The notes under the pieces: model-generated | What the model was told of the DNA's origin: nothing | The model's input: only the letters and a program-made list of their open reading frames with translations | Databases searched by the model: none | Position numbers and translations under genes: made by a program | Shown: one piece after another, positions 1 to 13,850 of the stretch | Position numbering within the stretch: the stretch's first letter is position 1 | Layout of the letters: each line of letters starts with the position of its first letter | Source of the DNA: Bdellovibrionota bacterium | GTDB lineage: Bacteria > Bdellovibrionota_C > UBA2361 | NCBI GenBank assembly: GCA_044352465.1 | Contig: JBILDU010000070.1 | Span: 1 to 16,614, forward strand | DNA length: 16,614 bases | Reading direction: 5' to 3'

Positions 1-656
1 CCGCCCCCCGCAAAGAACGCCCAGAGGAGCGCCCCCAAAAAAAATCCCCCCCGCTCAAACACCTCGCACTCGATCCCGCGACGGTGATCCGTGAGTTTTC
101 GCACCCACCGACCGGAGAGACGCGCGATGACGATCCACTCGCCGCACCGGTCGGCGACTACAAAGCTTTCTCTCGCCCCGCCGGCTCGGGCGCCGCTATC
201 GTCGGGCTCCGTGGCTCGAACGACTACCTCCCCCACCTACCGGACGGGGACCTCACCCTCTTAAACACCAAGGCGAATCGGTTCGCGGTCTTCGTCCGCC
301 GAGTAGCCACTCAGGTCTTTGGGCAACTTCGAGTATCGGGGTGGGAATATCTCAACGCAGGAGATATCAACCGGATCGACGACCACGCCACCGTCGTTGC
401 TACCCTTACTCCTGCCGGGGAACTCCTCGAGGCTCGCCTGATCGCCTCTTCGGGCAGTCGGCGATTCGACGAGGTCGTTCTCGCTGCGGTCAAAAAAGGT
501 GCTCGAGATCCCCACCCCCCATCCGGTGCTGAAAGTCCGGATGGCATGATCCGATTTATCTTTAAATCAAAAAGTTGGGTGCGACTCTCGGCCGATCCCC
601 GCGGACCCGGGTTCGGCGAAAGACGGTGGATATTACTGGGGACGGGGCTCGAGTGA
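1..656 (+). CDS. TonB family protein, C-terminal domain (energy transducer TonB-like); 5'-truncated by the window
   Basis: The frame is open from position 3 (APRKERPEERPQKKSPPLKHL..., a Pro/Lys/Glu-rich linker), so the 84 start in the ORF track is probably not the real start. The C-terminus has a TonB_C-like pattern (ATLTPAGELLEARLIASSGSRRFDEVVLAAVKKGA), preceded by NDYLP...DG..TLLNT. Confidence 0.7.
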   Translation, partial: APRKERPEERPQKKSPPLKHLALDPATVIREFSHPPTGETRDDDPLAAPVGDYKAFSRPAGSGAAIVGLRGSNDYLPHLPDGDLTLLNTKANRFAVFVRRVATQVFGQLRVSGWEYLNAGDINRIDDHATVVATLTPAGELLEARLIASSGSRRFDEVVLAAVKKGARDPHPPSGAESPDGMIRFIFKSKSWVRLSADPRGPGFGERRWILLGTGLE

Positions 657-911: not shown

Positions 912-3900
912 CTAGTTCCCACCCGGCGCATCGTTCGCGCCCGACGACCTCATCCGACTTAACCCGCTATTGGGACCAGCCTGCACTTGGGGGCTGCTAT
1001 TTAATAGTTGGTGATCTTGCGCTTGATGCGCTGGTTTGGTTACAAAATCAGGCGCAAGCGCTGCGGTAGCATCCGGTGGAGTCCACGAATGATACGCACC
1101 CTTCACCGCGCTTGCGCCGTAGTTGGCGTTCAAGCCACCGTGAATAGAGTTGGTACCGCCGCGATGCCCACCGGACTCTCCACTCTTATTCCAATCGAGG
1201 TGCCATGCGCTGCTTCCCGCGGCATCTCTTCCATCCGCCGTGCGGAGCTGACCAGACATTGCAAAACCGACCATATCGCTCGGCTTCGAGCCGGGGTCAA
1301 CGTTACCGGTCTGAATACCGAGGGCAGCCGACCAGCCACCCACCTGATTCGCAAACGCATTCCGCTCGTGCCACGCCTCTTGCTTGGCCGAGAAATCAGC
1401 GTAGCTCCGCATATTCCCCTGGGCAGCGCCGAGCTGGGATGAGTTTGCATTCGCCTGAAAGGCGCGCATATCGAGCCCCGCCTGCTGCTGCGCATACTGA
1501 TTCGACGCGCCGTAGAAATCGGTGGCGCCTTGAAAATTACTCTCAGCCATCCCCAGCTGCAACCCGGCGTCGGTTAACGCTCCACCGGTCTTCGAGGCCC
1601 CAGTGCCAAAAGTTGACCCACCACCTTGGCCCCCCCCCTTCGCTCCTGACGGCGGTGTGGGATCAAATGCTCGGCGAACACCCTCTCCAGCGAGCGGAGA
1701 CGCCACATTTGCGCCGCCCTGCCCACCCGCCAACGCCCACCGCCCTGCGGCTTCTCGCATCGCCATGGCGTTCTGGCTTTGCCCCATGATCCGACCGATC
1801 GCACCACTCGCGGCCTGCGCCTCGCTCCCCGCTCGGCCCTCCTCAAGTTGCTTCACTGAATAGCCGAGCGCTTGCGCCGCGAACCCTTGCTTCGCCATCG
1901 CTTTCGCTTCGCTCGACTGACCGATCGTGGCGGCATTCGAGCGGAGCTTCATCGACAGGTCGCCTTGGTAACCCGACGACGCCGCCCGACCCGCGTCCGA
2001 GGCCACTCCACCGATCATCGAATTCACCATGCTCGATGCACCGGACCGGGCACCCAAGACGAGCTGACCCGTCACCGCCGGGATCGCCATATAGAGCGCC
2101 GCCATGATGTAGATGTAGTAAGAGTTCGCTAAGTCGAGGTTAAGCGCCTTACTCATCAGGAGCGATTGGTCGAAAAGCTGCCACGCCTCGTTGACCGAAG
2201 CTTGGAAAGCGATCGTTTGGTTATCAAAATTGACCGCACCGCTCGGTCCGTTTAATGAGAAGATCGGTATCGGACACAGCGCATCGCCGCTACACGCTAC
2301 CCAATCTGCTTCACCAACGAGCTCATCGACCCGAACGATTCGATCGGAAAGGAACTTCACGTTCCCCCCCTGACTCGTCATCGCCCAGATACTTCGCTCG
2401 AGCGCTTTAACGATGGCGAAACCGAGGTCCCACATCTTTGCCCACGCCCAGAACGACATCCAGGTGAACACCGCCTTGTGCCAACCCGGCACAACAACGA
2501 GGACACACGCGAAGGGATAGGCGACTGCGAGAAAATAGAGCAGCGTACCCTGGATATAAGGGAGGAGGAGCGACCAAGTGTATAGCTCGCTAAATTTGCT
2601 CTTGGCGGAGGTCGTCTTGAGCGCTAGCTCAACGTTCTGCTGGGTTCGCTCCTCATTGGTCTGGCGAATCGGGGTGATCTCCTTCGTGATCATGTACTCG
2701 TTTCGAAAGAGATGGAGGAGGATCAGATTGTAGGCGAATCGTTGCCGCTCCGGCAGGGTCAAGAGCTCCCCCTCCGTGCCCACGGTGAATGCACTCGTCC
2801 ACTCCCGGTCCCTACGGATATCCCAGCCGTAGAAAAGGCTCGAGATAAGCATCTCTTCCCGCTCGTTATCCTCCGGAACAACGCCCGTCTCAGGGATAAA
2901 CTCAGGTCCAACCGAGTTCCAAAGACCGTGATACTTAAACGCCGCCTCAAGACGGAGCGCCTGCATCAACAGAAAAAGGTAATGCTCACAATCGATCGTG
3001 GTCAAATTAAGGGTAGATTCGAGTGAATTGCCTGGCCAGTTCTGCATCAAACTCCCCAAGCCGGTCCTTACGACGTTACCGAGACTGGAGGGCACGGAGA
3101 CGATGGTATTCCTTAAATTCCGTCCCGAGCCGTTGTACGTGCGGTTAACTTGGTTACAGGTATCATCGCTTGCGCAGGTGATAACCGAGGGGGGAAGCCG
3201 CCGCCCCCCAGAGGCCATCGCCGCCATCATCGCCTGGGTATTAAAACTCTTCCGCAGCGCATCGCCGCACATCACGAAGAAGTTCGAGAACGCATCCCGA
3301 AAGTCCGGGTTATCGACGCTCGCCGAGGTGATCTCCTCGAGAGCCTGCCACTTGACATCGGCATAGAGGCTCCACAAGACTCCCACCGGCAGGTTCTGCG
3401 TTCCGATGTTCGGGAGCTCAGGGAGATTGGTATCACCAGCCCCTTGACCAGCCTCAAGGTTATAGAGCCCGGTCCACCGCATCATGTTGATCATCGTTGA
3501 GCTTATGAGCTCATCGAACCACAGAAACGCTGCAGAAACTGAAACCCACGCACGCGGCTCAGCGTTCTTCGAGATACCCGCTGCGGTTGGACCGAGTATC
3601 CGGGCCGTATTCGAATTCGCAAGCCCGACCTCGGAGAGCTCCCACACCTTGCGTTGGAAATTCGTGAGCACCTGGGCATTTCCTACACACGGCATCGCCC
3701 ACCGCACCCCCTTGACCTCTATCTGGGTGCCGATGAGCCATGAGTAGATGGCCGGCCCCATGAAGAACCACATATAGGTCTTCGGTGGGGCACCCAGCGC
3801 TACCCCTACGAGGCCGCCGATGACCGCTAAAACGTAGAGGAGCGGGGCCCACAGTTGCAGGTCCGAGAACATAAGCTTATTAAGGACATCCGCCTGCACC

Positions 3901-4040
3901 CAGTAACCTTGGGTGGCAAAAGCGGCGGTGATCGCCGAGAACGTACTCGCTCGAAGCGGCGATTCCGGGCCATCATCGGGAGCCGCGGCGCACTGGAGGT
4001 CAACAAGACCTTGAACGATATCGATGATAATCGAATCCAT
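912..4040 (-). CDS. traG: TraG-like conjugative mating-pair stabilisation / inner-membrane protein (TraG_N-like domain plus long Gly/Ala/Ser/Gln-rich C-terminal tail)
   Basis: 1042 aa with an N-terminal TM pair, a large soluble loop, then a TraG_N-type TM block (LLPYIQGTLLYFLAVAYPFACVLVVVPGWHKAVFTWMSFWAWAKMWD), another TM (YYIYIMAALYMAIPAVTGQLV) and a low-complexity tail. RBS-like TAAGGAATTGAGGT lies directly before the ATG. It is the last gene after the traF/traH-like genes, as in F-type systems. Confidence 0.75.
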   Translation of the reverse strand: MDSIIIDIVQGLVDLQCAAAPDDGPESPLRASTFSAITAAFATQGYWVQADVLNKLMFSDLQLWAPLLYVLAVIGGLVGVALGAPPKTYMWFFMGPAIYSWLIGTQIEVKGVRWAMPCVGNAQVLTNFQRKVWELSEVGLANSNTARILGPTAAGISKNAEPRAWVSVSAAFLWFDELISSTMINMMRWTGLYNLEAGQGAGDTNLPELPNIGTQNLPVGVLWSLYADVKWQALEEITSASVDNPDFRDAFSNFFVMCGDALRKSFNTQAMMAAMASGGRRLPPSVITCASDDTCNQVNRTYNGSGRNLRNTIVSVPSSLGNVVRTGLGSLMQNWPGNSLESTLNLTTIDCEHYLFLLMQALRLEAAFKYHGLWNSVGPEFIPETGVVPEDNEREEMLISSLFYGWDIRRDREWTSAFTVGTEGELLTLPERQRFAYNLILLHLFRNEYMITKEITPIRQTNEERTQQNVELALKTTSAKSKFSELYTWSLLLPYIQGTLLYFLAVAYPFACVLVVVPGWHKAVFTWMSFWAWAKMWDLGFAIVKALERSIWAMTSQGGNVKFLSDRIVRVDELVGEADWVACSGDALCPIPIFSLNGPSGAVNFDNQTIAFQASVNEAWQLFDQSLLMSKALNLDLANSYYIYIMAALYMAIPAVTGQLVLGARSGASSMVNSMIGGVASDAGRAASSGYQGDLSMKLRSNAATIGQSSEAKAMAKQGFAAQALGYSVKQLEEGRAGSEAQAASGAIGRIMGQSQNAMAMREAAGRWALAGGQGGANVASPLAGEGVRRAFDPTPPSGAKGGGQGGGSTFGTGASKTGGALTDAGLQLGMAESNFQGATDFYGASNQYAQQQAGLDMRAFQANANSSQLGAAQGNMRSYADFSAKQEAWHERNAFANQVGGWSAALGIQTGNVDPGSKPSDMVGFAMSGQLRTADGRDAAGSSAWHLDWNKSGESGGHRGGTNSIHGGLNANYGASAVKGAYHSWTPPDATAALAPDFVTKPAHQAQDHQLLNSSPQVQAGPNSGLSRMRSSGANDAPGGN

Positions 4041-4051
4041 ACCTCAATTCC

Positions 4052-5635
4052 TTAGCGCAACCGCCCCGAATCCTGATTCTCAGAGACGAGAATCTGAGCG
4101 AACTCCCGCACCTTCGCTAGAACGCTCTCGTACTCACGCTGAATATCCCGTGTCCCCGCAACGCCGTACACCATGTCGAGGGCGAGGCTCCGCGTAGCAC
4201 CATCGAACGCGCCCGCTGAGAGACCTTTGATAAGCTGCTCAGCCGCGATGTAGGTGTTGAGGGTCTTGAGCCGCCCAAGCATCAGCGCGTACGAAAATAT
4301 AATCCGCGATAGCCGCGTTGCATTGGAGCCCCACTGCCCACCGCTCGCGATATTCTCGATATTCGTCGGGCGGTCTTCCCACGACCGCAACTCGTCGCAC
4401 GCGGGCTCCCCGCGAGTTCGCCCGAGCGATTCCTCGAACTCCCGATAGAACGCCTGAACCTCCGGCATACCGGTCATATGCCCGACCACCGCCAATCGAC
4501 CCATCAACTCCTGCGTCCTCTCCTGCCGATAGTAGCTCGTGCGAAACGGGCTCGGCGGGCCCACGACCTGGCCCGGATTAAGTTCAGTACACAGCCCCTG
4601 GAGCAAGTCGTGAATCACGTTGTACGCCACCGTGGTATGCCGCCGGTGAAGCTCCTCGGGAAGAATCGTCGGTCTGATTTTCGTGTGATTGAATTGGCGC
4701 GCCCCCGTATTTCCCGGAGTGATGGAGAATACGATGTCGCCGATCGTCTCGAGGAACGTCCCGCGAATAGCATTTAACGCTTGGGGGTCCCCCGGGTTGG
4801 TCTCCGAGTTAAAGAGATAGTCGGTTAACTTCATCTCGTTGGGGTTACCGTTCGGGACACCGATATTATTGAAGCTACTCGGGTGATCAGCATCGTCCTG
4901 CAAATTGAATCCGACTGGGCTCACCGACGAGAACGGAGTCACACCCGACGTATTCGTAATCGCCTCGCCGCCCTGACACTCTGCATCAGCCTGCGGCCAT
5001 GTTTTCCGGTCGGTTGAAGCGCTCATCTTCCGATACATACAGTCTTGGTAGGCCCGCAAAGCCAAGATCCCCTCGGGAGATACGTTGGCATTCGCGATAA
5101 ACGCTTGATTAGCGAGAAAGCGACTCTGGAGCGCCTGATTGACGTTACTAAGCGCGATGCTCATTCCGGCTGAAATCCCCGGTTCGGTAAGCTGCATCGC
5201 CACGTTCATAAGCGTCATCGGTGCGACAAGAGCATTGGCCGCCTGATTCGAATACGCCATTGAGTTGACGATCGACTGAAAACCACTCATCGGGGAGAGG
5301 GAGTTAAGCGACCTCTGTCGTCTTCCCGGTTCAGGCTGTGGGGGTGGTGTGTTTCCTACCTCGTTGCAGTTCCCGTTGGCACACCAAATGTTGGGATTCG
5401 ATGAGCGACCGACTAAGCTGTTTGCCAATGCCTCAAGACGTGAGGCTGAGGTGAGTGAGTTAGCGGGATTAGAGAGCTGAGCGACCTCCTCGTTTCGCCC
5501 CATCGCGTAGAGACCGGTGGCCGAATCCCCACTTGGGTCTTCCACACCCGGATACGGATACCCGAGCGCAATCTGGGGAAGGATCCACCAGACCCCCAGA
5601 ACGACAATAAACCCCGGTATATATCCACGCCGCAT
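4052..5635 (-). CDS. traH: TraH-like exported pilus assembly protein (divergent)
   Basis: Signal peptide (MRRGYIPGFIVVLGVWWILPQIALG) and 6 Cys. The segment NVAMQLTEPGISAGMSIALSNVNQAL and the later C...W..A...C and FLETIGDIVFS segments resemble TraH/ICE-family features. It sits between traF-like and traG-like genes. The canonical CGGID motif is not visible. Confidence 0.55.
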   Translation of the reverse strand: MRRGYIPGFIVVLGVWWILPQIALGYPYPGVEDPSGDSATGLYAMGRNEEVAQLSNPANSLTSASRLEALANSLVGRSSNPNIWCANGNCNEVGNTPPPQPEPGRRQRSLNSLSPMSGFQSIVNSMAYSNQAANALVAPMTLMNVAMQLTEPGISAGMSIALSNVNQALQSRFLANQAFIANANVSPEGILALRAYQDCMYRKMSASTDRKTWPQADAECQGGEAITNTSGVTPFSSVSPVGFNLQDDADHPSSFNNIGVPNGNPNEMKLTDYLFNSETNPGDPQALNAIRGTFLETIGDIVFSITPGNTGARQFNHTKIRPTILPEELHRRHTTVAYNVIHDLLQGLCTELNPGQVVGPPSPFRTSYYRQERTQELMGRLAVVGHMTGMPEVQAFYREFEESLGRTRGEPACDELRSWEDRPTNIENIASGGQWGSNATRLSRIIFSYALMLGRLKTLNTYIAAEQLIKGLSAGAFDGATRSLALDMVYGVAGTRDIQREYESVLAKVREFAQILVSENQDSGRLR

Positions 5636-5642
5636 AAGCTAC

Positions 5643-6833
5643 CTATCTCCCCGTATCCATGGATTTGAGAATTTGCTCCAGCTCACTAAAACGAACGATC
5701 CCCTCCCGCGACACGGTCTTTCCCGTACGCGGATCCGTGATAACCAACGTCGGAGATTTTGTGAGCTGCATCGACTGGGCGAGCCGCGAACCGTCTCGGA
5801 TCAAGAACGTCGTCCGGGTAACCGACTTAAATCGTTGAGCTTCGCCTTGATTGAAGTTACTGGCTACGAATCCCACCACGTTAACCTTACGACCGGAACG
5901 GTGGAGCGACTCGATCTCCGGAGCCATCTCAAGCGCTCCACGATCGTTCGGTGAGAAGAAGAAGAAGACATCCACCGGCTGAGCGGCGGGGGCCGTGCCG
6001 TTCACACGACCAGCAGCTCCCCCCTCGTTGTTGATAAACGCTTGGGCCGCAGAGTCGTCGCTCATCGAGGGGACGATACTGTTCTCTCCACCCGGAGCGT
6101 TGCGCTCATCCGCACGCCTCTCCGCGGCTTTCGCCTCCTCAAACATCTCGCGGGTACGCTCATCGAGCCCACCGCTCTTCGCGGCGATACCACTCCGCTC
6201 AAGATCGCGCTCCAGAATCTCTTGATCCTCAACAAAATCGGGACCGCCTTTCCACTGCCCCGGTTCCGCCATCCCCTCACGCTCAAGCGCCTTCCCGGTC
6301 ATGCTCATAAGCCGCGCATTTTGGCTCTGCACATGGCCGATGTAGCGAACATATTGGCGGGCGTATTGAAAGGCGAGATCGTCGTGCCCCGCTTCAAGCG
6401 CGCGAAGCATCGCTTTAAAGGGCTTCGGAGCGTTTTCAACCGCAAGCATCGGTAGCTTCTCCTCGGGGTCACCGAATTCGGCGGTGATATCTTCCTCGCT
6501 CGTATTCTCCGGATCGAATGCGGTGCCACCATCTTTAGCCTTGTCGGGAGCGACAGCGGCCTCGTCTGCACGGGCAGCAGGACGTTCCTTCTTTTTGCGC
6601 GCAGCCAACTCGCGCTCACGTAGGCGCCCCGCGTTCACGACCACGATGGAGTCATCGAACACCGAGAGAGCAGCATCACGGTCAAAAAAGTCGAGTGAGG
6701 ATTCCTCGGCACCAACCGCCGGCCCCGCGAGCAGCATCCCCACAAGGAGCGCCACACAGACGCGGGACTGCGACGTCACCGCGAACTTCTCGGCAAGGCG
6801 ATCTGAACTCTTCTTTCGAACGAATGCGCGCAC
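5643..6833 (-). CDS. traF: TraF-like exported protein with C-terminal thioredoxin-like fold, no CxxC
   Basis: GTG start with AGAGGT 7 nt upstream and a signal peptide ending ...AGPAVGA. A helical middle region is followed by VDVFFFFSPNDRGALEMAPEIESL...VNVVGF and a cis-Pro loop LAQSMQLTKSPTLVI, matching the TraF thioredoxin-domain pattern. It lies directly upstream of the traH-like gene. Confidence 0.6.
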   Translation of the reverse strand: MRAFVRKKSSDRLAEKFAVTSQSRVCVALLVGMLLAGPAVGAEESSLDFFDRDAALSVFDDSIVVVNAGRLRERELAARKKKERPAARADEAAVAPDKAKDGGTAFDPENTSEEDITAEFGDPEEKLPMLAVENAPKPFKAMLRALEAGHDDLAFQYARQYVRYIGHVQSQNARLMSMTGKALEREGMAEPGQWKGGPDFVEDQEILERDLERSGIAAKSGGLDERTREMFEEAKAAERRADERNAPGGENSIVPSMSDDSAAQAFINNEGGAAGRVNGTAPAAQPVDVFFFFSPNDRGALEMAPEIESLHRSGRKVNVVGFVASNFNQGEAQRFKSVTRTTFLIRDGSRLAQSMQLTKSPTLVITDPRTGKTVSREGIVRFSELEQILKSMDTGR

Positions 6834-6949
6834 GCGTAGAACCTCTCGTCGTCGACGTCTAACGTTGCAATGAGCGCTTCTCTCCCGCGCGAAGCGCCCC
6901 TCCTGGTCATAAAGAGTTATGGAGGTTTTAGGGACTTATGTGCCCTTTA

Positions 6950-6969
6950 CGATAATGATTTTCAGGCTC
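6950..6969. promoter_or_regulatory. Fur-box-like operator upstream of the traF-traH-traG-like genes
   Basis: GATAATGATTTTCAGGCTC (6951-6969) matches the 19-bp Fur consensus GATAATGATAATCATTATC at 14/19. cGATAAT-G-ATTtTCA (6950-6964) matches the 7-1-7 form at 12/14. It lies in an AT-rich intergenic stretch. Confidence 0.4.
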
Positions 6970-7033
6970 GCTACGGCTGGGGGGATAATCAAAAAACCAT
7001 GCAGTACCGAAGACTTAGAGACTCAGCGCGCGC

Positions 7034-7876
7034 CTACAACTTTGGCTGGGCGCCACCGAAAAGAGCATCGGGGGTCGGACTCGGGCTGGGCACGGGGGTC
7101 GCAGGAATAGAACTAACGTCCCCTTCAACCGGTTTAAGCGCTGGTGCGGCCACATCCCGCGAGACCCGCATCTCGTTTGGTTTCTCGACGAACTCCCCCT
7201 TCATATTGAAGTGCGCTGCGAGCGGCCCGGTCGCCTCGAGGAGGATCTCCCCTTCCGGAGTTCGGAGCACCCACGTTGGTGACATCTTTATCTTGTAGTG
7301 CTCCGGAGCAGCCTCGGCCGCTTCCACGATCCCTTGGCGGGCGACGAGGTAGAGCGCTTCGGGAGACGACATGAGATTTTGTACCGAGCCGATCGCCCAG
7401 ATAAACCCCACATCGAGATCGTATCTTTCAACGACCTCGAGAAGCTCTTTGAGCTTCGCATCAAAGTGGGTTTTATCAACCGCATTGATGACCCCCCCGA
7501 TCGAAAGAACCTTATGATTCTTCTCGAGAGCGGTGAGGTCCCCCGCTTGAATCTGCCCCTCGCGTTGCATCGCTTCGATTCGGCTCTTGGCTTCCTCCTC
7601 GGCGGAACGACCCCCTGCCGCTGGAGCTGCTTCAACCCGCGGGGCCTCATTGGGTGCCGGCGAGGCACCGTCTCCCAGTTTGCGCGGCGCTCCCGAAGCA
7701 GGCTGTTCACTCAGCGGATTACGCGCAAAATCACGCTCAAAAAAGGGGTTTTTCTCCTGCCCGTCGGCGGAGCGCCCCAGACACACAAGCACCAGAAAAA
7801 AGCCCAGCGATACCGCTCTCGGTAAAAGTTCTCCGCGGAGGCCGCCTCGCGCATTTCGGTATTCCATAGCTCTCAC
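7034..7876 (-). CDS. TrbC-like (F-type pilin assembly, thioredoxin-like) exported protein; start may be the ATG at 7867
   Basis: Signal peptide (AVSLGFFLVLVCLGRSADG) and Pro/Ala-rich linkers at both ends. The alpha/beta core ends in APEHYKIKMSPTWVL, similar to the TrbC 'F..Y.I..VP.FV' motif. It lies directly downstream of the traU-like gene, as in F. Confidence 0.5.
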   Translation of the reverse strand: MRAMEYRNARGGLRGELLPRAVSLGFFLVLVCLGRSADGQEKNPFFERDFARNPLSEQPASGAPRKLGDGASPAPNEAPRVEAAPAAGGRSAEEEAKSRIEAMQREGQIQAGDLTALEKNHKVLSIGGVINAVDKTHFDAKLKELLEVVERYDLDVGFIWAIGSVQNLMSSPEALYLVARQGIVEAAEAAPEHYKIKMSPTWVLRTPEGEILLEATGPLAAHFNMKGEFVEKPNEMRVSRDVAAPALKPVEGDVSSIPATPVPSPSPTPDALFGGAQPKL

Positions 7877-8055
7877 GACAACCGAAGTTTTGACACATCC
7901 ATACGGGCACTACCGCGACGACTGACACCAGGCTTTACTCATCGACACCTGCCTATCCATAAAGCTATCCGTCCGTGGGGCACTCACACGGTGTCGCGCG
8001 AAACATCCCACCGTCCGGTGCGCACGCCTGCGCGCAGTCGTTTCAAAAGCCACTT

Positions 8056-9576
8056 CTAGTGAAAACGGAGCTCACTCTTATTCGGTGGCCACACATTGGG
8101 CACTTTGCCGCGCCAGTTCATACAACAGGTAAAGCGCGTCCACATAATCACCACGTTCCAAGGATCCTTACCCTTCTTCGAATTGGCAAGCTTGTTTTCG
8201 TCGAGCTTCCACTTCTCGATCCCGCCGCACCCTTTGGGCATCCGATCGTTACGGGTCCATTGGAACTTGTCACCTTTCTCCGGTTTGTAGGTGTACATAC
8301 TCCCCGACATTAACTTCTCCGCCACCCGAATCGCTTTCATCGTCCCTACCCGCGAAGCATCGGTGAAGTGGACCGACTGAGCGGTGTTCGTGACCGGGAG
8401 CCACGCACCGGCATTCGTGCCCTGGCAGCCCCCCTCGCCGGGAAAACTTAATCCCCCCGGAAGTGGGAACGCGAGCGGAAAGGCCATATCCTTGGGGGTC
8501 TTGCCGGTGCGCACGTTCTTCATCGTGCACACCTGCGGCAGGAACGTCATCGGCACCATCAGGGATGGCCACAAGATCATACTCAGCCCGCTAAACCGCG
8601 CCGGCAGCATCATGAACGGCCAGTCGCTAAACCACCACGGTTGGCGAATGTGGTGACACCACGGGCTTGCTGAGCCCACCGTCGTGTTAAAGAACTCCGG
8701 CATCAGATGGTATTCAACGTGGCGATACCCCGGCGCGCTCGTCATCGCCGTGGTCCACCGCGCGTTACTATTATATCCACCCAAACGACTCATCCCGAGA
8801 CCGATCCCCGCGCCCCCGTCCGGACTCGGATTCGGATCGCTCGCCACCGAATGGCCGTACATACCGCTGAGCGTCTGCGCCGCCGCCTTCGCCCGGGTCA
8901 CTCCGATCTGGGTCATCGTTGGAGCTATCGCGTACAGCCCCACAGGGAGGTACTCATTCAGCGGAATAATAAACCCGTCGTTGATAAAACGGGGGAAGTA
9001 TCCGCTCTTATAGGGCTGATCGACCGTCTCAATCTTCACCGTTGGAAAGCTGTAGCGGATCAAAAGGGTCACATCAACATCGAAAGGCGGGGTGTAATGG
9101 ATACAGATATTGACGAGCCGAAACTTAAGGCAACTTAAGATCCGTGATACGATCGTCTGGATATCGTGAATATGATTGACGACGAGATCGGAGAGAGCGG
9201 CACCGTGGAAAAACGCCCACCGGTCCCCGCTATTTCCCAGCCGATCGATAATCTCAGGCGCGGCCGCGTTCGGATTGAACTCGCTCTCGAGGGGATCCCC
9301 ACCTCGGGCGAGCTTTTGAATATTCTTTTCGGTTAACCCCCGCCCGGAGGGCTTGGACAGATTGTTCTTCTGCCGCGAGATCTCACCTTGCTGAGCATCG
9401 ATGTGGGGCTGAACGGTATTGAGAATAAAGTCGAGGGTAAAAGGACGCACATCGAGGCCGTTTCCTCCCCCGCCTTGCGCCTCGGCCACGCCGCCGAGCC
9501 CGGCGCACCACCAGCCCACGAGCACGATCAATCGGGCGAACTTCAAAGTTCCTTGCATACGCCTACTTCTCATCAC
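8056..9576 (-). CDS. traU: TraU family exported Cys-rich protein
   Basis: Signal peptide ending GVAEA. Contains CLKFRLVNICIH...LIRYSFPTVKIETVDQPY, WFSDWP, CQGTNAGAWLPVT and VVIMWTRFTCC, which are TraU-type motifs, with 8 Cys in the mature part. The start overlaps the upstream stop (GTGA/TGATG at 9571-9576). Confidence 0.75.
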   Translation of the reverse strand: MMRSRRMQGTLKFARLIVLVGWWCAGLGGVAEAQGGGGNGLDVRPFTLDFILNTVQPHIDAQQGEISRQKNNLSKPSGRGLTEKNIQKLARGGDPLESEFNPNAAAPEIIDRLGNSGDRWAFFHGAALSDLVVNHIHDIQTIVSRILSCLKFRLVNICIHYTPPFDVDVTLLIRYSFPTVKIETVDQPYKSGYFPRFINDGFIIPLNEYLPVGLYAIAPTMTQIGVTRAKAAAQTLSGMYGHSVASDPNPSPDGGAGIGLGMSRLGGYNSNARWTTAMTSAPGYRHVEYHLMPEFFNTTVGSASPWCHHIRQPWWFSDWPFMMLPARFSGLSMILWPSLMVPMTFLPQVCTMKNVRTGKTPKDMAFPLAFPLPGGLSFPGEGGCQGTNAGAWLPVTNTAQSVHFTDASRVGTMKAIRVAEKLMSGSMYTYKPEKGDKFQWTRNDRMPKGCGGIEKWKLDENKLANSKKGKDPWNVVIMWTRFTCCMNWRGKVPNVWPPNKSELRFH

Positions 9577-10352
9577 CTGAAGGTTTGATTAATCAAAGCC
9601 TCCATCTTGGGGTGGACCTTCCCTTTCCCGTGAGGATTCTCATCAAAATTCTTTAAGGCATTGGCCCCCTCATCCCGGTAGACATACGCCTTCGTCGCCC
9701 GCATCCGCGTCGGCAAACAGGTCACGCCAACCCCGACCGCCGAAAAGGCGAGGGCGTTGGGGGTTTCCGCGTCGTAGGGATGAATGATCGTGTCTTTTCC
9801 AAAGACCTCATCGGTATCGAGGGGGAGATCCCTCTTCGCGATGAAGAGCATATCGAATAAAATAGTCTTGTCTCCCTTGGCATCTTTCATCCCGGTCTCT
9901 TCCCGGGTCGTCTTATTCTCGGAGCACTTGGGCAGATCCGGCACGGACTGATGCATCTCCTTAATGCGCTCGACCCCCTGCATGTGCAGATCGATAATCT
10001 CCTGCTCTTGCTCCTTTGTGATGTGCAGCACCGGCGGAATCTCCTCGGGTTTCGGAAAGGGAACACCTTGGGTTGAGCGTAGATGAAGCACTATCGGGCG
10101 AACGGTAGCCGCCTCCTCATCGATCTCACGCTCCCGCTCCTCGATCCCCTGGGGGCCCCGATACTGTGCTTCGATAATCGCCCGGAGGTGCCGGCTATCC
10201 GGCTCAAGCCGAAGTCGCGCCGCGATCTTGCCGATAATCTCAGGGGTCAGGACAAAATTGGGATCGCGCGACGATTGCGCCAACGTGGGTGAGGCACCCC
10301 AAAGAGCCGCTCCGATAATACCAAGGGTGAGGAATAGAAATTGTCCGCGCAC
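9573..10352 (-). CDS. TraW-like exported protein (divergent)
   Basis: Start re-called to the GTG at 10352. It has GAAAGG upstream and gives a clean signal peptide (MRGQFLFLTLGIIGAALWGASPTLA), whereas the 10514 start runs through the terminator. The C-terminal AVGVGVTCLPTRMRA resembles the TraW 'FGI..VP..V' motif. It is translationally coupled to the traU-like gene. Confidence 0.45.
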   Translation of the reverse strand: MRGQFLFLTLGIIGAALWGASPTLAQSSRDPNFVLTPEIIGKIAARLRLEPDSRHLRAIIEAQYRGPQGIEEREREIDEEAATVRPIVLHLRSTQGVPFPKPEEIPPVLHITKEQEQEIIDLHMQGVERIKEMHQSVPDLPKCSENKTTREETGMKDAKGDKTILFDMLFIAKRDLPLDTDEVFGKDTIIHPYDAETPNALAFSAVGVGVTCLPTRMRATKAYVYRDEGANALKNFDENPHGKGKVHPKMEALINQTFR

Positions 10353-10422
10353 GGGGAAAAACCTTTCTTTCTTCTCGCGGTCGACGGGATTGCGCCCGCA
10401 TGCAACACCGCCACCGCTGATT

Positions 10423-10441
10423 AAATGGGTTATGCCCATTT
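10423..10441. promoter_or_regulatory. Palindromic putative operator upstream of the tra-like cluster
   Basis: AAATGGG-TTATG-CCCATTT is a perfect 7-5-7 inverted repeat between the gcv terminator and the traW-like start. Confidence 0.3.
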
Positions 10442-10469
10442 TCTCCCGGGGTGTGTCATATCTATCGGC

Positions 10470-10503
10470 GCAAAAAAGCCCGCCAAAGAGCGGGCTTTTT
10501 TGC
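10470..10503. terminator. Rho-independent terminator of the gcv operon (symmetric, potentially bidirectional)
   Basis: GCAAAAAAGCCCGC-CAAAGA-GCGGGCTTTTTTGC is a perfect 14-bp inverted repeat with a GC stem and a 6-U tail on either strand, about 20 nt after the gcvP stop. Confidence 0.9.
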
Positions 10504-10522
10504 TGCATTTTCAAGAGCTTAC

Positions 10523-13438
10523 CTACTTATAAGCCTCCATCGGCAAGCAGGTGCAGACAAGGTTACGGTCGCCAAAGCTGCTATCGATGCGGCCCACGGT
10601 AGGCCAGAACTTATAGCTGCGGGTAAACTTCGACGGGAACGCCGCCTGCTCACGAGAGTACGGATGAGCCCATTCGCTCGAGATCACCGCGTGCGCTGTG
10701 TGCGGGGCGTTCTTCAGGGGGTTATTCACCCGATCCATCACCCCCTCCTCTATCCCCTTCGCCTCGTGCCAAATCGCGATCATCGCCTCACAAAATCGAT
10801 CGAGCTCCGCGAGCGATTCACTCTCGGTCGGCTCCACCATCATGGTACCAGCAACAGGCCACGAGACCGTGGGCGCATGGAAACCGTAGTCCATCAGCCG
10901 CTTCGCCACGTCATCAACCTCGATCCCCGCTGATTTCTTCAACGGCCGAAGGTCGAGGATACACTCATGAGCGCAGAAGCCGTTTTTCCCTCGGTAAACA
11001 ACCGGGTAATACTTCTCGAGCTTCGCCGCGATATAGTTCGCATTCACAATCGCCATCTCGGAAGCCTCCCGGAGCCCCGCGGCTCCCATCATCGCGATAT
11101 ACATCCACGAGATGGTGAGAATGCTCGCACTTCCCCACGGGGCGGCGGATATCGGACCGACACCATGAGCATGCCCGAGGTTCACCAAAGGATGGTTGGG
11201 CAAGAACGGCACCAAATGGGCCCGCGCGGCGATCGGCCCCATTCCCGGTCCACCACCGCCGTGCGGGATGCAGAAGGTTTTGTGGAGGTTAATATGACAG
11301 ACGTCCGCCCCGATATCGTTCGGCCGTACTACCCCCACCAAGGCGTTCAAATTGGCTCCATCCATATAGACCTGCCCACCCTGCGCGTGAATCGCATCGC
11401 AGATCTCGCGGATTAACTCTTCAAACACCCCGTGGGTTGAGGGATAGGTCACCATGAGCGCGGCAAGGTTAGCCTTATGCTCCAGCGCCTTCGCCTTGAC
11501 ATCAGCCACAGCGATATTGCCGTGTTCGTCACACTCAACCGGAACAACCTTGAGGCCAGCCATCACCGCACTCGCCGGATTCGTTCCGTGAGCTGAACGG
11601 GGGATGAGACAGATATCCCGGTGCGATTCACCTCGACTCGCGTGATACGCTCGGATGACCGCGAGTCCAGCATACTCACCTTGCGAGCCCGCATTCGGCT
11701 GAAGCGATACTCCGGCGAAGCCGGTCACCTCAGCGAGAGCTGATTCGAGTCCACGGAAGAGCTCTTCGTAGCCCCGTCGCTGCTCAGCCGGACAAAAAGG
11801 GTGGAGCCCGTTAAACTCAGGCCAGGTCACCGGAAACATCTCAGTTGCCGCGTTTAACTTCATCGTGCACGAGCCGAGCGGAATCATCGACCCCGTCAGC
11901 GAAAGATCGCGCGACTCAAGCCGCCGCACATACCGCTGGAATTCCGTCTCAGAGTGGTAGCGATTAAAGACCTCGTGGGTCATGTAAGCACTCTGGCGCT
12001 CAAAGAAAGCGGGCCATACCCACCGACCCTGCGGCGCCTCATGGAAAGTCTCAACCGTCTTTCCGGTGAGCACCTCGATCAGATCCTTAAGATCACGCTC
12101 CAAGGTGGTTTCATCGAGCGACACCGCCACGCTTTCACCATCAACCGTGCGCAGGTTCATCCGTTTTTTCGTCGCCCGCTCCTGCACGGTCCGAAGCTCG
12201 CGGCCGAGATGCACATGGAGCGTATCGAAGAACAATCCGTTCTTAACGGTGACACCATCCGCTTCGAGCGCGGCGGCGAGGAGCCGAGTCATCTGATGGA
12301 CTCGCGCAGCGATTCGTCGAATTCCCTTCGGACCGTGGTATACCCCGTACATACTCGCCATAACCGCGAGAAGCACCTGGGCCGTGCAAATATTACTCGT
12401 CGCCCGCTCGCGCCGGATATGTTGCTCGCGGGTTTGGAGCGAGAGCCTGAGGGCGGGCTGCCCGTGACTATCTTTCGAAACACCCACAAGTCGGCCCGGC
12501 ATGAGCCGCTTATGCTCATCCTTCGTCGCAAAGAACGCGGCGTGCGGCCCACCGAACCCCATCGGCACTCCGAACCTTTGGGCGCTTCCCACCACGATAT
12601 CAGCACCGAACTCACCGGGTGGCGTGAGCATCGCGAGGGACAAGATATCAGCCGCCACAACGAAGAGGGCTTTCCCCTTCGCGCACCCCTCGCCGAGAGC
12701 ACGATAGTCCTCAATCGACCCCAAGGTTGTCGGATATTGCACCAACACGCAGAAAACATCGGACGAAAGTGCGCCACCGCTCAACCAGGTGGTATGGTCG
12801 CTGATCACCACGTTGACGTCGAGCATCCGCGCCCGCGTCTCCACGACGCTGATCGTTTGGGGATGACACCCCGAGGAGACAAGTAAGGTGCGTTTCGGAC
12901 CAACCGCGCGTGCCCCTTCCTGTTCGAGTTTCTCACAGACCGCGAGCGCGAGCGCCACCGCTTCCGCTGCTGCCGTGCCCTCATCGAGGAGCGAAGCGTT
13001 TGCAATCGGCAACCCGGTGAGGTCGGTGATCATCGTTTGGAAGTTGAGGCACGCCTCCAGTCGCCCTTGCGATATCTCGGGCTGATACGGGGTGTACTGC
13101 GTGTACCACCCGGGATTTTCCAGGATGTTTCGCTGTATCACCGCCGGAGTAAAGCAGCCGTAGTACCCCATTCCGATAAACGACCGCCAGATCTGGTTCT
13201 TCGATGCGATCGCCTTCAGGTCAGCTAACGCCTGAGGCTCCGTCCGCTCTGCAGCGAAGTCGGTCAGGCTAAAAGTTCCGGGGATACGGATCGATTCAGG
13301 CACCACCTGCGCAATAAGATCGCTCACCGAGGAGACTCCGAGAGCATCGAGCATCGTACGAGTCTCTTCAGCGCTAGGGCCGATATGGCGACGGATAAAG
13401 GAATCGGTTTCGAGCTTAAACGAACGAGGAGTTGTCAT
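10523..13438 (-). CDS. gcvP: Glycine dehydrogenase (decarboxylating), glycine cleavage P protein, single-chain form
   Basis: Contains [58 protein letters not shown] and the PLP-site [18 protein letters not shown]. Start re-called to the ATG at 13438 (MTTPRSF) so that it does not overlap gcvH. Confidence 0.98.
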
Positions 13439-13466
13439 ATGAGCGGCTACAACGAACGAGTAAAAG

Positions 13467-13850
13467 TTATTTCTCTCCGACGTGGGCACGATATTGCTCG
13501 GCCGACATGAGAGTCGCGATATCTTCGGCGGCAAAACCCTCGAGCTTTACCATCCAACCCTCTCCGTACGGATCGGAGTTAAGCAGCTGCGGATTTCCTT
13601 GTAGCGCAGCGTTACCTTCCTTAACCTTACCTGCTATCGGCGCGTACACATCCGAGGCTGCCTTCGTGGACTCAACGACGCAGAGCGAATCTCCCTTCGA
13701 GAAAGAGCGACCCGGCGCGGGGGTCTCAGCGAAAACGATCTCGCCCAGCTCGTGCTGCGCGAACTCAGTGATCCCGATTGTGGCCACACTCCCCTCAACA
13801 CGCACCCACTCGTGATCTTTGGTGTACTTTAACTCGCTCGGAAAGTTCAT
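13467..13850 (-). CDS. gcvH: Glycine cleavage system H protein
   Basis: Contains [32 protein letters not shown], the lipoyl motif [13 protein letters not shown] and [18 protein letters not shown] precedes the ATG at 13850. Confidence 0.98.

What the first reader, a model, noticed from the sequence alone, without database searches (positions are those of the whole stretch)
912..10352. Orphan, divergent F-type T4SS accessory module (traW-traU-trbC-traF-traH-traG) embedded among housekeeping genes: candidate domesticated contact/secretion system
Seen: six intact co-oriented genes, five with signal peptides and one polytopic membrane protein, with RBSs and translational coupling, lying between a gcv terminator and a convergent TonB-like gene. 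No integrase, transposase, tRNA, relaxase, coupling protein, VirB4/TraC or pilin is in the window. Established: TraW, TraU, TrbC, TraN, TraF, TraH and TraG are the subunits that distinguish F-type T4SSs (pilus extension/retraction, mating-pair stabilisation) and occur in this order on F. F-type systems can be repurposed, e.g. DNA secretion by the gonococcal genetic island. Inference: this is a chromosomally fixed module working with core genes encoded elsewhere, possibly for a non-conjugative role such as prey/host attachment, effector delivery or DNA exchange.
Basis: partly seen in the sequence, partly recalled or inferred. Interest (0 to 1): 0.85.

Follow-up and report, generated by a model that had tools for sequence, protein, structure and literature searches.

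The report
Accessory genes of chromosomal F-like secretion machine
These six genes are the very diverged "F-plasmid-type" helper parts of a DNA/protein-injection machine that an entire uncultured bacterial lineage keeps permanently in its chromosome, split over several sites, which suggests the machine now serves the cell itself and not a plasmid.

Summary
Six intact, co-oriented minus-strand genes (912-10352) lie between a hairpin terminator after gcvP and a convergent TonB-like gene. No Pfam or NCBIfam model matches any of them.

- TraF: clear (hhalign E 1.9e-8).
- TraG/VirB6: clear (paralogues pass Pfam TraG_N; the two best fold matches of 48,161 chains are DotA and TrwI/VirB6).
- TraU: probable (E 0.013, plus a bridging protein).
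- TrbC and TraH: weak.
- TraW: not above the null by sequence, but it is predicted to bind the TrbC candidate (score 0.85; best control 0.04).
- Gene order matches canonical F systems, minus TraN.

The "core genes elsewhere" exist. Contig C101 carries TraE?-K-B-V-C and contig C105 a coupling protein.
- The TraC ATPase is in 121 of 124 genomes of the lineage (57-96% identity).
- The coupling-protein family is in 120 of 124.
- TraG relatives are in 108 of 124.
- No relaxase was found in this genome.

So this is a vertically inherited, host-owned F-like T4SS, not an ICE remnant. Its substrate is unknown.

The scan found the core cluster before on other DNA (e1-4842167, e1-4527487, e1-3347700). 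This window supplies the W/U/TrbC/F/H/G set reported missing there. Four literature searches found no paper describing the system.

The parts
9573..10352 (-). W313: TraW candidate, a secreted periplasmic protein. 259 aa from the GTG at 10352; the longest ORF runs to 10514.
   Evidence: It occupies the first position of a conserved W-U-C triad, found in 13 of 30 related loci. hhalign against TraW gives E 0.051-0.057 over 77-164 columns. That ranks 3rd of 19 and 1st of 8 templates, but one reversed-template control scored higher (22.1 against 19.3), so sequence alone does not decide. It is predicted to bind C280: ipSAE 0.85, best of 3 controls 0.04. Conserved C-terminal motif CLPxRxR...G..ALKNYD.
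8056..9576 (-). U506: TraU-like, Cys-rich secreted protein with an N-terminal extension and an internal insert relative to F TraU (330 aa).
   Evidence: No Pfam TraU match even at E<=10. The family is small: 7 close relatives among 5.8e9 proteins and 66 representatives among 1.84e9. 0 of 55 members scanned match Pfam TraU. hhalign against 8 diverse TraU sequences gives E 0.013 over 136 collinear columns (331-486 ~ TraU 176-329), score 27.5 against a reversed-template maximum of 15.3. The family HMM matches P0074 at 20.3 bits in two collinear stretches, and P0074 matches Pfam TraU at E 1.2e-5. The model is confident (pTM 0.79) and has no solved analogue.
7034..7876 (-). C280: TrbC candidate, a secreted protein with a C-terminal domain that scores like thioredoxin-fold proteins.
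   Evidence: Pfam TrbC_Ftype matches 0 of 124 genomes. hhalign against TrbC gives E 0.041 over 72 columns (140-216 ~ 103-180), score 20.6 against a null maximum of 17.2. It also matches TrbB at E 0.028. It is predicted to bind W313 through residues 129-240. It holds the third position of the conserved triad in 14 of 30 related loci.
5643..6833 (-). F396: TraF homologue. Secreted, with a long charged N-terminal part and a C-terminal thioredoxin-like domain that has no CxxC.
   Evidence: hhalign against TraF gives E 1.9e-8, probability 95.4%, 91 columns (287-388 ~ 144-235). It ranks first, with score 65.2 against a null maximum of 18.5. Weak Pfam matches: Thioredoxin_2 E 0.052, and Thioredoxin_8 E 6.3e-5 for the G032 orthologue. 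The only Cys lies in the leader.
4052..5635 (-). H527: TraH candidate by position; a secreted, fast-evolving protein.
   Evidence: It sits between TraF and TraG as in F, pBAR3, pHN39-SIM and pPrY2001. hhalign against TraH gives E 0.13-0.17 over 36-39 columns (439-477 ~ 352-390). It ranks 1st of 19 and 1st of 8, with score 20.4 against a null maximum of 16.3. Pfam TraH finds nothing in the genome even at E<=10. Homologues occur in 21 of 30 related loci.
912..4040 (-). G1042: TraG_N/VirB6-class polytopic inner-membrane protein with a roughly 340-aa Gly/Ser/Ala/Gln-rich tail.
10470..10503 (.). Palindromic hairpin terminator between gcvP and the module.
   Evidence: 14-bp stem with 8 GC pairs and T-runs on both strands.

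Best explanation
Identity. The six genes encode the F-type-specific periplasmic and inner-membrane assembly set of a type IV secretion system: TraW?, TraU, TrbC?, TraF, TraH? and TraG/VirB6. This lineage carries the system as a permanent, vertically inherited chromosomal trait, split over at least three loci.

Other parts in this genome.
- The envelope-spanning core lies on contig C101: TraE?/VirB8, TraK/VirB9, TraB/VirB10, TraV/VirB7 and the TraC/VirB4 ATPase.
- A VirD4/TraD-type coupling ATPase lies on contig C105.

Inferred mechanism, by analogy with F.
- TraG/VirB6 forms the inner-membrane base of the channel or stalk.
- The secreted proteins form a periplasmic complex: TraF (thioredoxin-like), TraH, TraU and a TraW-TrbC pair. 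This complex drives assembly, extension and retraction of the pilus or stalk on the TraK/B/V core.
- The coupling protein feeds substrates to TraC.

Likely use. The machine is near-universal in the lineage. Its TraC is as conserved as a housekeeping protein, and no relaxase, integrase or TraN adhesin was found. It most likely serves the cell by contact-dependent delivery or export of protein or DNA to another cell, not plasmid conjugation.

Shown versus inferred. Shown: gene content, homology of TraF, TraG, TraC, TraB, TraK, TraV and the T4CP, and distribution. Inferred: the roles of W, C and H, the substrate, and the biological use.
For: Identity of the six proteins.
- hhalign of family alignments (14-23 relatives each) was run against 19 canonical F-type families. 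The predicted partner ranks 1st for F396 (1.6e-7), G1042 (3.2e-4), U506 (0.14) and H527 (0.17). It ranks 2nd for C280 (0.041) and 3rd for W313 (0.051).
- With richer templates, U506->TraU reaches E 0.013 and F396->TraF 1.9e-8.
- Against reversed templates (n=17), the expected partner exceeds every control for U506, F396, C280 and H527.
- U506 is bridged to TraU through P0074.
- G1042 is tied to TraG_N through paralogues that pass the Pfam cut-off. Its two best fold matches of 48,161 chains are DotA and TrwI/VirB6. A review table equates F TraG, TrwI and DotA with VirB6 (PMC12624023, passages read).
- W313 and C280 are predicted to bind: ipSAE 0.85, best of 3 controls 0.04, runs agreeing in at least 72% of contacts, partner pLDDT at least 78. 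The mark was reached by 116 of 157 solved and 2 of 215 mismatched pairs. The interface joins W313's N-terminal half (residues 47-109) to C280's C-terminal domain. In F, the TraW N-terminal domain and the TrbC C-terminal domain interact, and some systems fuse the two proteins (PMC7555446, passages read). I saw such fusions.
- No solved structure matched F TraW, TraU, TraH or TraG by sequence.
- The order W-U-TrbC-(N)-F-H-G equals that of F, pBAR3, p48846_IncFII and a Legionella fallonii plasmid.

Rest of the machine.
- C101 ORFs match TraC_F_IV (E 1.5e-15), TrbI/VirB10 (1.3e-11), TraV (0.005) and TraK_N (0.062) in Pfam.
- By hhalign they match TraB 2.4e-27, TraK 1.4e-5, TraV 9.9e-6 and TraE 0.028.
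- The T4CP on C105 matches T4SS-DNA_transf at 125.6 bits, plus TrwB_AAD_bind and TraG-D_C.

Fixation in the lineage.
- TraC is in 121 of 124 genomes and 73 of 73 high-quality ones, mostly as a single match. Identity is 96% within the genus, 67-80% within the order and 57-64% in other orders.
- The 7-gene core is syntenic in 18 of 20 loci.
- TrwB_AAD_bind matches 120 of 124 genomes.
- G1042 relatives are in 108 of 124.
- Flanks are housekeeping genes, with no T4SS or mobility families, in 8 related loci.
- Relaxase families TrwC, TraI_2 and Relaxase, and TraN, have no match at E<=1 in this genome.
Against: - None of the six proteins matches its Pfam or NCBIfam family. TrbC_Ftype matches 0 of 124 genomes. 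TraW_N matches 2 of 124 and TraH 3 of 124, all weakly and at other loci.
- W313->TraW is not above the reversed-template null: 19.3 against a maximum of 22.1.
- The C280 and H527 links are weak (E 0.04-0.17), and C280 scores equally well against TrbB and other thioredoxin-like templates.
- The U506 family was detected in only 47 of 124 genomes and in 0 of 36 of family f9, so the W-U-C triad is not shown to be lineage-wide.
- No pilin was identified. The first ORF of the core cluster is a secreted helical protein, not pilin-like, and no genome-wide pilin search was run.
- A T4CP is present, so DNA transfer by an unrecognised relaxase is not excluded.
- The genome is 94.9% complete in 170 contigs, and relaxases were searched in this genome only.
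- No expression or functional data were obtained.
Confidence: 0.75

Rival explanations
1. The machine still moves DNA. It would be a chromosome-borne conjugation, DNA-release or DNA-uptake system, like the F-like T4SS of the gonococcal genetic island. It would use the conserved coupling protein together with a relaxase or DNA-processing protein too diverged, or of too new a family, to be recognised. The window genes would then build a true conjugative pilus.
For: A bona fide VirD4/TraD-family T4CP is conserved (120 of 124 genomes). All recognisable parts are of the conjugative MPF_F type. An earlier scan note on a relative (e1-3347700, unchecked) reports a neighbour with a fold typical of single-stranded-DNA binders. 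GGI-like F-type systems secrete ssDNA (PMC4207684, abstract seen in the listing).
Against: No TrwC, TraI_2 or Relaxase family match at E<=1 in this genome. The only F TraI-like match is a RecD2 helicase. No TraN. No integrase, tRNA or mobility gene in the window or in the 8 related loci scanned. TraC conservation at housekeeping level across 121 genomes is unusual for a selfish transfer system.
Confidence: 0.2
2. The six genes are a lineage-specific envelope operon unrelated to the T4SS. The weak Tra similarities would reflect only shared general features: thioredoxin fold, signal peptides, hydrophobic helices.
For: No Pfam or NCBIfam match for any of the six. Four of the six profile-profile links have E>0.01. 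One reversed control outscored W313->TraW. The module lies on a different contig from the T4SS core.
Against: TraF at 95% probability. The TraG_N chain of homology and the DotA and VirB6 top fold matches. The expected partner ranks 1st, 1st, 1st, 1st, 2nd and 3rd of 19 templates, and the gene order is canonical. An F-type core and T4CP lacking exactly these parts sit in the same genome. The T4CP lies about 1.3 kb from the TraG-like gene in G011.
Confidence: 0.04
3. The block is a decaying remnant of an integrated conjugative element or plasmid that lost its core, relaxase and integrase.
For: The accessory genes sit apart from the core genes. TraN, a pilin and a relaxase were not found.
Against: All six ORFs are intact, and their homologues recur in related loci: 13 to 25 of 30 loci per gene. 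GC content is even with the flanks. The same-genus relative has the same gcvP junction. G1042 relatives are in 108 of 124 genomes and TraC in 121 of 124, with identity that tracks taxonomy.
Confidence: 0.01

Closest known systems
MPF_F (F-type) conjugative T4SS: F plasmid, pBAR3 of Sphingomonas, SXT/R391- and IncA/C-like systems
   Same: Same parts list and the same order: TraE/K/B/V/C core, then TraW-TraU-TrbC-...-TraF-TraH-TraG, plus a VirD4/TraD-type coupling protein. TraF has a thioredoxin-like C-terminal domain, and a TraW-TrbC contact is predicted (PMC7555446).
   Different: Chromosomal and split over at least three loci among housekeeping genes. Near-universal in a lineage of 124 species genomes. 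No TraN, relaxase, integrase or recognisable pilin was found. The accessory proteins are so diverged that no Pfam model detects them. U506 is 506 aa against 330 aa for F TraU. Some orders carry 3-10 tandem TraG_N paralogues.
Rickettsiales vir homolog (rvh) T4SS
   Same: A vertically inherited, host-owned T4SS scattered over separate chromosomal sites. Its VirB6-class genes have multiplied into tandem paralogues of about 670-1150 aa that are conserved only in a short core region (PMC2653234, passages read). Here, TraG_N paralogues of about 600-1150 aa match G1042 only at residues 464-578.
   Different: rvh is P-type (VirB/D4) and has VirB11. This system is F-type, with TraC_F_IV, TraV and TraF/TraU-type parts. 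The lifestyle of the present lineage is unknown.
F-like T4SS of the gonococcal genetic island
   Same: An F-type machine with TraW/U/TrbC/F/H/G-type genes that serves a non-conjugative purpose, secreting ssDNA (PMC4207684, abstract only).
   Different: The GGI is a horizontally acquired island, variably present within one species, and it carries relaxase and partitioning genes (recalled, not checked here). The present system is lineage-wide and no relaxase was found.
Legionella Dot/Icm (type IVB) effector translocator
   Different: Different T4SS class (I-type ancestry). No sequence similarity was seen apart from the shared VirB6-class fold hint.

Membership tests
TraG_N / VirB6 class (PF07916) | Homology of the polytopic core region to TraG_N | tested here: met
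   The direct Pfam match is only 12.5 bits (E 0.09, cut-off 36.1), but it is the sole match in the genome. Same-order ORFs of 1000-1130 aa, including G1042 homologues in G111, match at E down to 2.3e-7, and 20 of 124 genomes have a match over the cut-off. G1042 matches those same ORFs at about E 1e-19. hhalign against TraG gives E 3.2e-4, rank 1 of 19. DotA and TrwI/VirB6 are the top 2 of 48,161 chains.
TraF, F-type (PF13728) | C-terminal thioredoxin-like domain homologous to TraF | tested here: met
   hhalign E 1.9e-8, probability 95.4%, 91 columns, score 65.2 against a reversed-template maximum of 18.5. The Pfam scan of the protein listed only Thioredoxin_2 at E 0.052.
TraU (PF06834) | Match to the TraU profile | tested here: inconclusive
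   No Pfam match at E<=10, and 0 of 55 family members match. However, hhalign gives E 0.013 over 136 collinear columns, above all 17 reversed controls. There is also a bridge via P0074: 20.3 bits to the U506 family HMM and Pfam TraU E 1.2e-5.
TrbC_Ftype (PF09673) | Match to the TrbC profile | tested here: inconclusive
   Pfam matches 0 of 124 genomes. hhalign gives E 0.041 over 72 columns, score 20.6 against a null maximum of 17.2, but TrbB scores E 0.028.
TraW (PF12477 TraW_N) | Match to the TraW profile | tested here: inconclusive
   Pfam matches 2 of 124 genomes, weakly and at other loci. hhalign gives E 0.051-0.057, and one reversed control scored higher.
TraW-TrbC pair | TraW N-terminal part binds the TrbC C-terminal domain | tested here: met
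   This is a prediction only: ipSAE 0.85, best control 0.04. The interface joins W313 47-109 to C280 129-240. The F precedent comes from PMC7555446.
TraH (PF06122) | Match to the TraH profile | tested here: inconclusive
   No Pfam match at E<=10 in the genome. 3 of 124 genomes have weak matches in small ORFs elsewhere. hhalign gives E 0.13 over 39 columns, rank 1, score 20.4 against a null maximum of 16.3.
MPF_F T4SS | Gene order traW-traU-trbC-(traN)-traF-traH-traG | tested here: met
   The window order equals that of F, pBAR3, p48846_IncFII and the L. fallonii plasmid, except for traN.
MPF_F T4SS | TraN mating-pair stabilisation adhesin | tested here: not met
   PF06986 has no match at E<=1 in the genome. 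There is no ORF between C280 and F396, only a 200-nt gap.
MPF_F T4SS | Core TraC (VirB4), TraB, TraK and TraV in the same genome | tested here: met
   Contig C101: TraC_F_IV at 57.6 bits and TrbI at 45.2 bits, both over the cut-off; TraV at 18.2 bits and TraK_N at 14.1 bits, both below it. hhalign: TraB 2.4e-27, TraK 1.4e-5, TraV 9.9e-6.
MPF_F T4SS | TraA/VirB2-type pilin | tested here: inconclusive
   The first core-cluster ORF (149 aa) is a secreted helical protein with no TraA or TraL match in hhalign. No genome-wide pilin search was run.
Conjugative system (MPF + T4CP + relaxase) | Type IV coupling protein | tested here: met
   C105:3-1775(-): T4SS-DNA_transf 125.6 bits, TrwB_AAD_bind 94.5 bits, TraG-D_C 72.2 bits. 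The family is in 120 of 124 genomes.
Conjugative system (MPF + T4CP + relaxase) | Relaxase | tested here: not met
   PF08751, PF07514 and PF03432 have no match at E<=1 in this 94.9%-complete genome. Other MOB families and the relatives were not searched.

The most novel reading that the evidence does not exclude
An ancient F-type T4SS has been domesticated once and kept by a whole phylum-level lineage of uncultured bacteria as a core lifestyle machine. It would act as a contact-dependent injector or exporter aimed at other cells (prey, hosts or neighbours). Its TraG/VirB6 paralogue arrays and their variable tails would act as exchangeable recognition or delivered modules. This would be the F-type counterpart of the Rickettsiales rvh and Legionella Dot/Icm systems, and the first F-type machine shown to be lineage-defining and not mobile.
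Probability: 0.35. Interest if true: 0.85.

Novelty: new variant of a known kind. Interest (0 to 1): 0.72.

Why it matters
F-type T4SSs are studied almost only as plasmid and ICE conjugation machines. Here one is fixed in the chromosome of nearly every member of a deep, uncultured lineage. Its ATPase is conserved like a housekeeping gene, and its F-specific helper proteins have drifted beyond the reach of every curated profile.

- This window supplies the helper set (W/U/TrbC/F/H/G) that earlier looks at the core cluster reported as missing. The machine is therefore nearly complete, lacking only TraN, a pilin and a relaxase as far as could be seen.
- It gives highly diverged natural variants of TraU, TraH, TraW and TrbC, four proteins with no solved structure. 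These variants show which residues are truly constrained.
- It offers a test case for how conjugation machines become cell-owned secretion systems, in parallel to the rvh and Dot/Icm systems.
- It shows that standard tools such as Pfam would score these genomes as having an incomplete T4SS.

Tried and rejected
Searches that gave nothing useful.
- Pfam and NCBIfam scans of the six proteins at E<=10 gave only noise.
- phmmer of U506 against PDB sequences gave only noise.
- The ESM Atlas gave no usable hit for U506.
- BLASTP of window proteins against F TraH, TraG, TraF, TraW and TrbC gave nothing significant. Only hints appeared: 'NQGEAQRF/DQGQAQRL' for TraF and a W..W.L membrane stretch for TraG.
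- hhalign of the shallow alignment A1 against single TraU or P0074 sequences gave nothing.
- tblastn of U506 and P0074 against 72,556 plasmids gave no Tra hits.
- phmmer of 18 F Tra proteins against all genome ORFs of 100 aa or more found none of the six window genes, although it did find TraC and TraB on C101.
- phmmer of the six window proteins against ORFs around the G063/G064 TraU-like gene gave no hits at E<=10.

Searches that returned too little diversity.
- tblastn with F TraU and the search for homologous proteins with F TraU returned only close IncF relatives.
- I recalled pES100 as F-type. It is MPF_T, so that recollection was wrong and the record was not used for templates.

Fold searches.
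- Foldseek against the PDB found no match with E<=0.001 for the G1042 N-terminal model (best E 0.16) or the U506 model (best E 1.2).
- VIA-align wide for U506 matched only a helical hairpin at 202-277, with Z no higher than 5.8.
- No solved structure matched F TraU, TraH, TraG or TraW by sequence. Structural membership of U, H, W and C therefore could not be tested.

Other points.
- Adding a Methylomonas TraW-TrbC fusion to both the TraW and the TrbC templates blurred those two comparisons.
- The idea that the module lacks a coupling protein was rejected.
- The F TraI-like hit on C95 is a RecD2 helicase, not a relaxase.
- Literature searches with the terms found no paper describing this system. 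The taxon name UBA10199 was only my guess and is unverified.

Full report
**What is in the window.** The window is a whole contig (G000:C62, 16,614 b) of a 3.13-Mb genome in 170 contigs, 94.9% complete.
- On the minus strand lie folD (15118-16014), gcvT (13882-14988) and gcvP (10523-13534).
- Six further ORFs follow: W313 (9573-10352/10514), U506 (8056-9576), C280 (7034-7876), F396 (5643-6833), H527 (4052-5635) and G1042 (912-4040).
- A TonB_C protein (3-656, + strand) converges on them.
- A 14-bp-stem palindromic hairpin at 10470-10503 follows gcvP and lies inside the longest W313 ORF, so the start at 10352 is preferred.
- There is no tRNA, no mobility family among the 11 ORFs scanned, and GC content is even.
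- The leaders and membrane helices were read by eye.

**Why the names were not obvious.** None of the six proteins matches any Pfam or NCBIfam family at E<=10, apart from noise.
- U506 has 7 close relatives among 5.8 billion proteins.
- A profile search of 1.84 billion representatives found 66 members. None of the 55 I scanned matches Pfam TraU.
- BLASTP and phmmer against the F plasmid's own Tra proteins (L001) gave nothing significant.

**The rest of the machine exists.** phmmer of F Tra proteins against all ORFs of the genome hit contig C101: TraC at E 2.1e-8 and TraB at 0.0014.
- Pfam on C101 gives TraC_F_IV (E 1.5e-15, 57.6 bits), TrbI/VirB10 (1.3e-11), TraV (0.005) and TraK_N (0.062), in the order K-B-V-C.
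- hhalign of family alignments gives TraB 2.4e-27, TraK 1.4e-5, TraV 9.9e-6 and TraE 0.028 (rank 1 of 19).
- A coupling protein lies at C105:3-1775(-), cut by the contig end. It matches T4SS-DNA_transf at 125.6 bits, TrwB_AAD_bind at 94.5 and TraG-D_C at 72.2.
- The relaxase families TrwC, TraI_2 and Relaxase, and TraN, have no match at E<=1 in this genome.
- The F TraI-like hit on C95 is a RecD2 helicase.

**Distribution.** The lineage held as this genome's phylum has 124 species genomes, all of one class.

| Component | Genomes with a match (of 124) | Notes |
|---|---|---|
| TraC-like ATPase | 121 (73 of 73 high-quality) | Mostly one match per genome; identity 96% in genus, 67-80% in order, 57-64% in other orders |
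| TrwB_AAD_bind (coupling-protein family) | 120 (118 over cut-off) | Best matches about 100 bits in ORFs of about 800 aa |
| Pfam TraG_N | 81 (20 over cut-off) | At E<=0.01 |
| G1042 N-terminal 700 aa | 108 (68 of 73 high-quality) | |
| U506 family profile | 47 | 0 of 36 in family f9 |

- The seven-gene core cluster is syntenic in 18 of 20 loci sampled across the class.
- The U506 figure means the W-U-C triad is either more diverged or missing in part of the lineage.
- In 30 related loci the F-H-G triad recurs (22, 21 and 25 loci) and so does the W-U-C triad (13, 14 and 14 loci). The two triads are sometimes adjacent, as here, and sometimes at separate sites.
- The same-genus relative has the block next to gcvP. 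More distant relatives have other housekeeping neighbours and no T4SS or mobility genes nearby.
- Public labels of TraC orthologues vary: 'Deltaproteobacteria', 'Candidatus Dadabacteria', 'SAR324' and 'Pseudomonadota'.
- Earlier scan notes call the lineage Bdellovibrionota. I could not check that.

**Identity of each window protein.** I built family alignments from 14-23 relatives. I compared them by hhalign with 19 canonical F-type families taken from six, later nine, diverse plasmids.
- F396 -> TraF: E 1.6e-7, then 1.9e-8 (probability 95.4%), over the thioredoxin-like domain 287-388.
- G1042 -> TraG: E 3.2e-4 (488-547 ~ 320-380), rank 1 of 19.
- U506 -> TraU: E 0.14, then 0.013, over 136 collinear columns, rank 1.
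- H527 -> TraH: E 0.17, then 0.13, rank 1.
- C280 -> TrbC: E 0.041 over 72 columns, rank 2 behind an 11-column hit. With the richer templates TrbB scores 0.028.
- W313 -> TraW: E 0.051 over 164 columns, rank 3 behind two short hits, then 0.057 and rank 1 of 8.

As a null I reversed 17 templates.

| Pair | Expected-partner score | Highest reversed-template score |
|---|---|---|
| U506 -> TraU | 27.5 | 15.3 |
| F396 -> TraF | 65.2 | 18.5 |
| C280 -> TrbC | 20.6 | 17.2 |
| H527 -> TraH | 20.4 | 16.3 |
| W313 -> TraW | 19.3 | 22.1 |

The expected partner beat every control except for W313.

**Further links.**
- The U506 family HMM matches a 664-aa protein of another order (P0074) at 20.3 bits in two collinear stretches. 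P0074 matches Pfam TraU at E 1.2e-5.
- The only TraG_N match in the whole genome at E<=10 is inside G1042.
- G1042 matches, at about E 1e-19, ORFs that pass the TraG_N cut-off.
- A model of G1042 residues 1-700 (pLDDT 71, pTM 0.68) found nothing with Foldseek.
- The U506 model (pLDDT 80, pTM 0.79) has no solved analogue. No solved structure matched F TraU, TraH, TraG or TraW by sequence.

**The W313-C280 pair.** A complex prediction of W313 (27-259) with C280 (100-240) scored ipSAE 0.85 in three runs, against 0.04 for the best of three controls.
- Contact agreement was at least 72% and partner pLDDT at least 78.
- The tool's mark was reached by 116 of 157 solved and 2 of 215 mismatched pairs.
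- The interface joins a strand at W313 84-100 to C280 208-217.
- In F, the TraW N-terminal domain and the TrbC C-terminal domain must interact, and some systems fuse the two proteins (PMC7555446, passages read). I saw such fusions in the P. mandelii, Providencia, IncHI1B and Methylomonas records.
- This supports the pair functionally. It does not prove homology.

**Reading.** Gene order (W-U-TrbC-[no N]-F-H-G) matches canonical F systems. Two assignments are solid, one is probable and three are weak but consistent. The same genome holds an F-type core and a coupling protein that lack exactly these parts.
- Lineage-wide presence, and TraC identity that falls with taxonomic distance, argue for vertical inheritance and against an ICE remnant.
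- The absence of a detected relaxase, integrase and TraN suggests a cell-owned function.
- The conserved coupling protein keeps DNA transfer possible.
- The closest functional parallel is the Rickettsiales rvh system. [quoted passage not shown] In other orders of this lineage, 3-10 tandem TraG_N paralogues match G1042 only at residues 464-578.

**Prior knowledge.**
- Earlier agents of this scan described the core cluster on other genomes as a lineage-wide chromosomal F-like T4SS. One note says the W/U/N/F/H/G set was not seen there. Another says missing parts lie at a second site (e1-4842167, e1-4527487, e1-3347700).
- My independent counts agree, and this window is that second site.
- Literature searches with the terms found no paper on the system.
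- For each paper I cite, I saw only listings, abstracts or the quoted passages.

Noticed in passing
Related genomes: G061:C34:96321-106506, G059:C149/C253/C230, G046:C49:6190-13362, G068:C74:113-8147, G051:C1:2770013-2781305: Other orders of the lineage carry tandem arrays of 3-10 TraG_N paralogues of 600-1150 aa. They match G1042 only in the core region 464-578. This recalls the multiplied VirB6 genes of Rickettsiales.
   Followed up: partly
L022 = G032:C261:15000-31708 and L015 = G032:C136: One relative has two copies of the whole module. In the second copy W-U-C is on the minus strand and F-H-G on the plus strand, so the two triads are transcribed divergently.
   Followed up: partly
G000:C148:5859-8123 (L105:1360-3624, minus strand); L017:354-2585: A second HerA/TrwB-like ATPase of 755 aa (TrwB_AAD_bind 43 bits, DUF87). 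A similar 744-aa DUF87/TrwB-like ATPase lies about 6 kb from the W-U-C triad in G008.
   Followed up: partly
L024:1246-3240 (G063:C3) and L025:136-2085 (G064:C80): Proteins of 664 and 649 aa match Pfam TraU only in their last third (about 25 bits). They bridge the U506 family to TraU. Their neighbours showed no similarity to the window proteins.
   Followed up: partly
G000:C101:1-1476(-), 9927-12271(+); L082-L099: Genes flanking the TraE-K-B-V-C cluster are also conserved: a divergently transcribed gene of about 700 aa with no Pfam family (12 of 20 loci), a bacterial PH-domain protein (13 of 20), an SH3/coiled-coil protein (12 of 20) and an M23 peptidase (6 of 20). They may belong to the machine.
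   Followed up: partly
window 912-1940 (G1042 residues about 700-1042): The C-terminal third of G1042 is a low-complexity Gly/Ser/Ala/Gln/Asn-rich tail with no family match. Only the first 700 residues were used in the lineage-wide search, and the other-order paralogues match only residues 464-578.
   Followed up: no
Family f9 genomes (G085-G118): The U506 profile finds nothing in 0 of 36 genomes of the largest family. Yet F-H-G and TraC are present there, and W- and C-like ORFs were seen in one of these genomes (L063). The TraU-like gene is either lost or beyond detection.
   Followed up: no
G011:C4:20194-21339 against 15748-18858: In G011 the coupling-protein gene lies about 1.3 kb downstream of the TraG-like gene on the opposite strand. 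In G023, G053 and G054 it shares a contig with TraC, 11-20 kb away.
   Followed up: no
window 3-656 (+) and L015:9542-10561 (-): A TonB_C-domain gene converges on the TraG-like gene both here and in G032, which belongs to a different family. This may be a conserved neighbour and not a chance flank.
   Followed up: no
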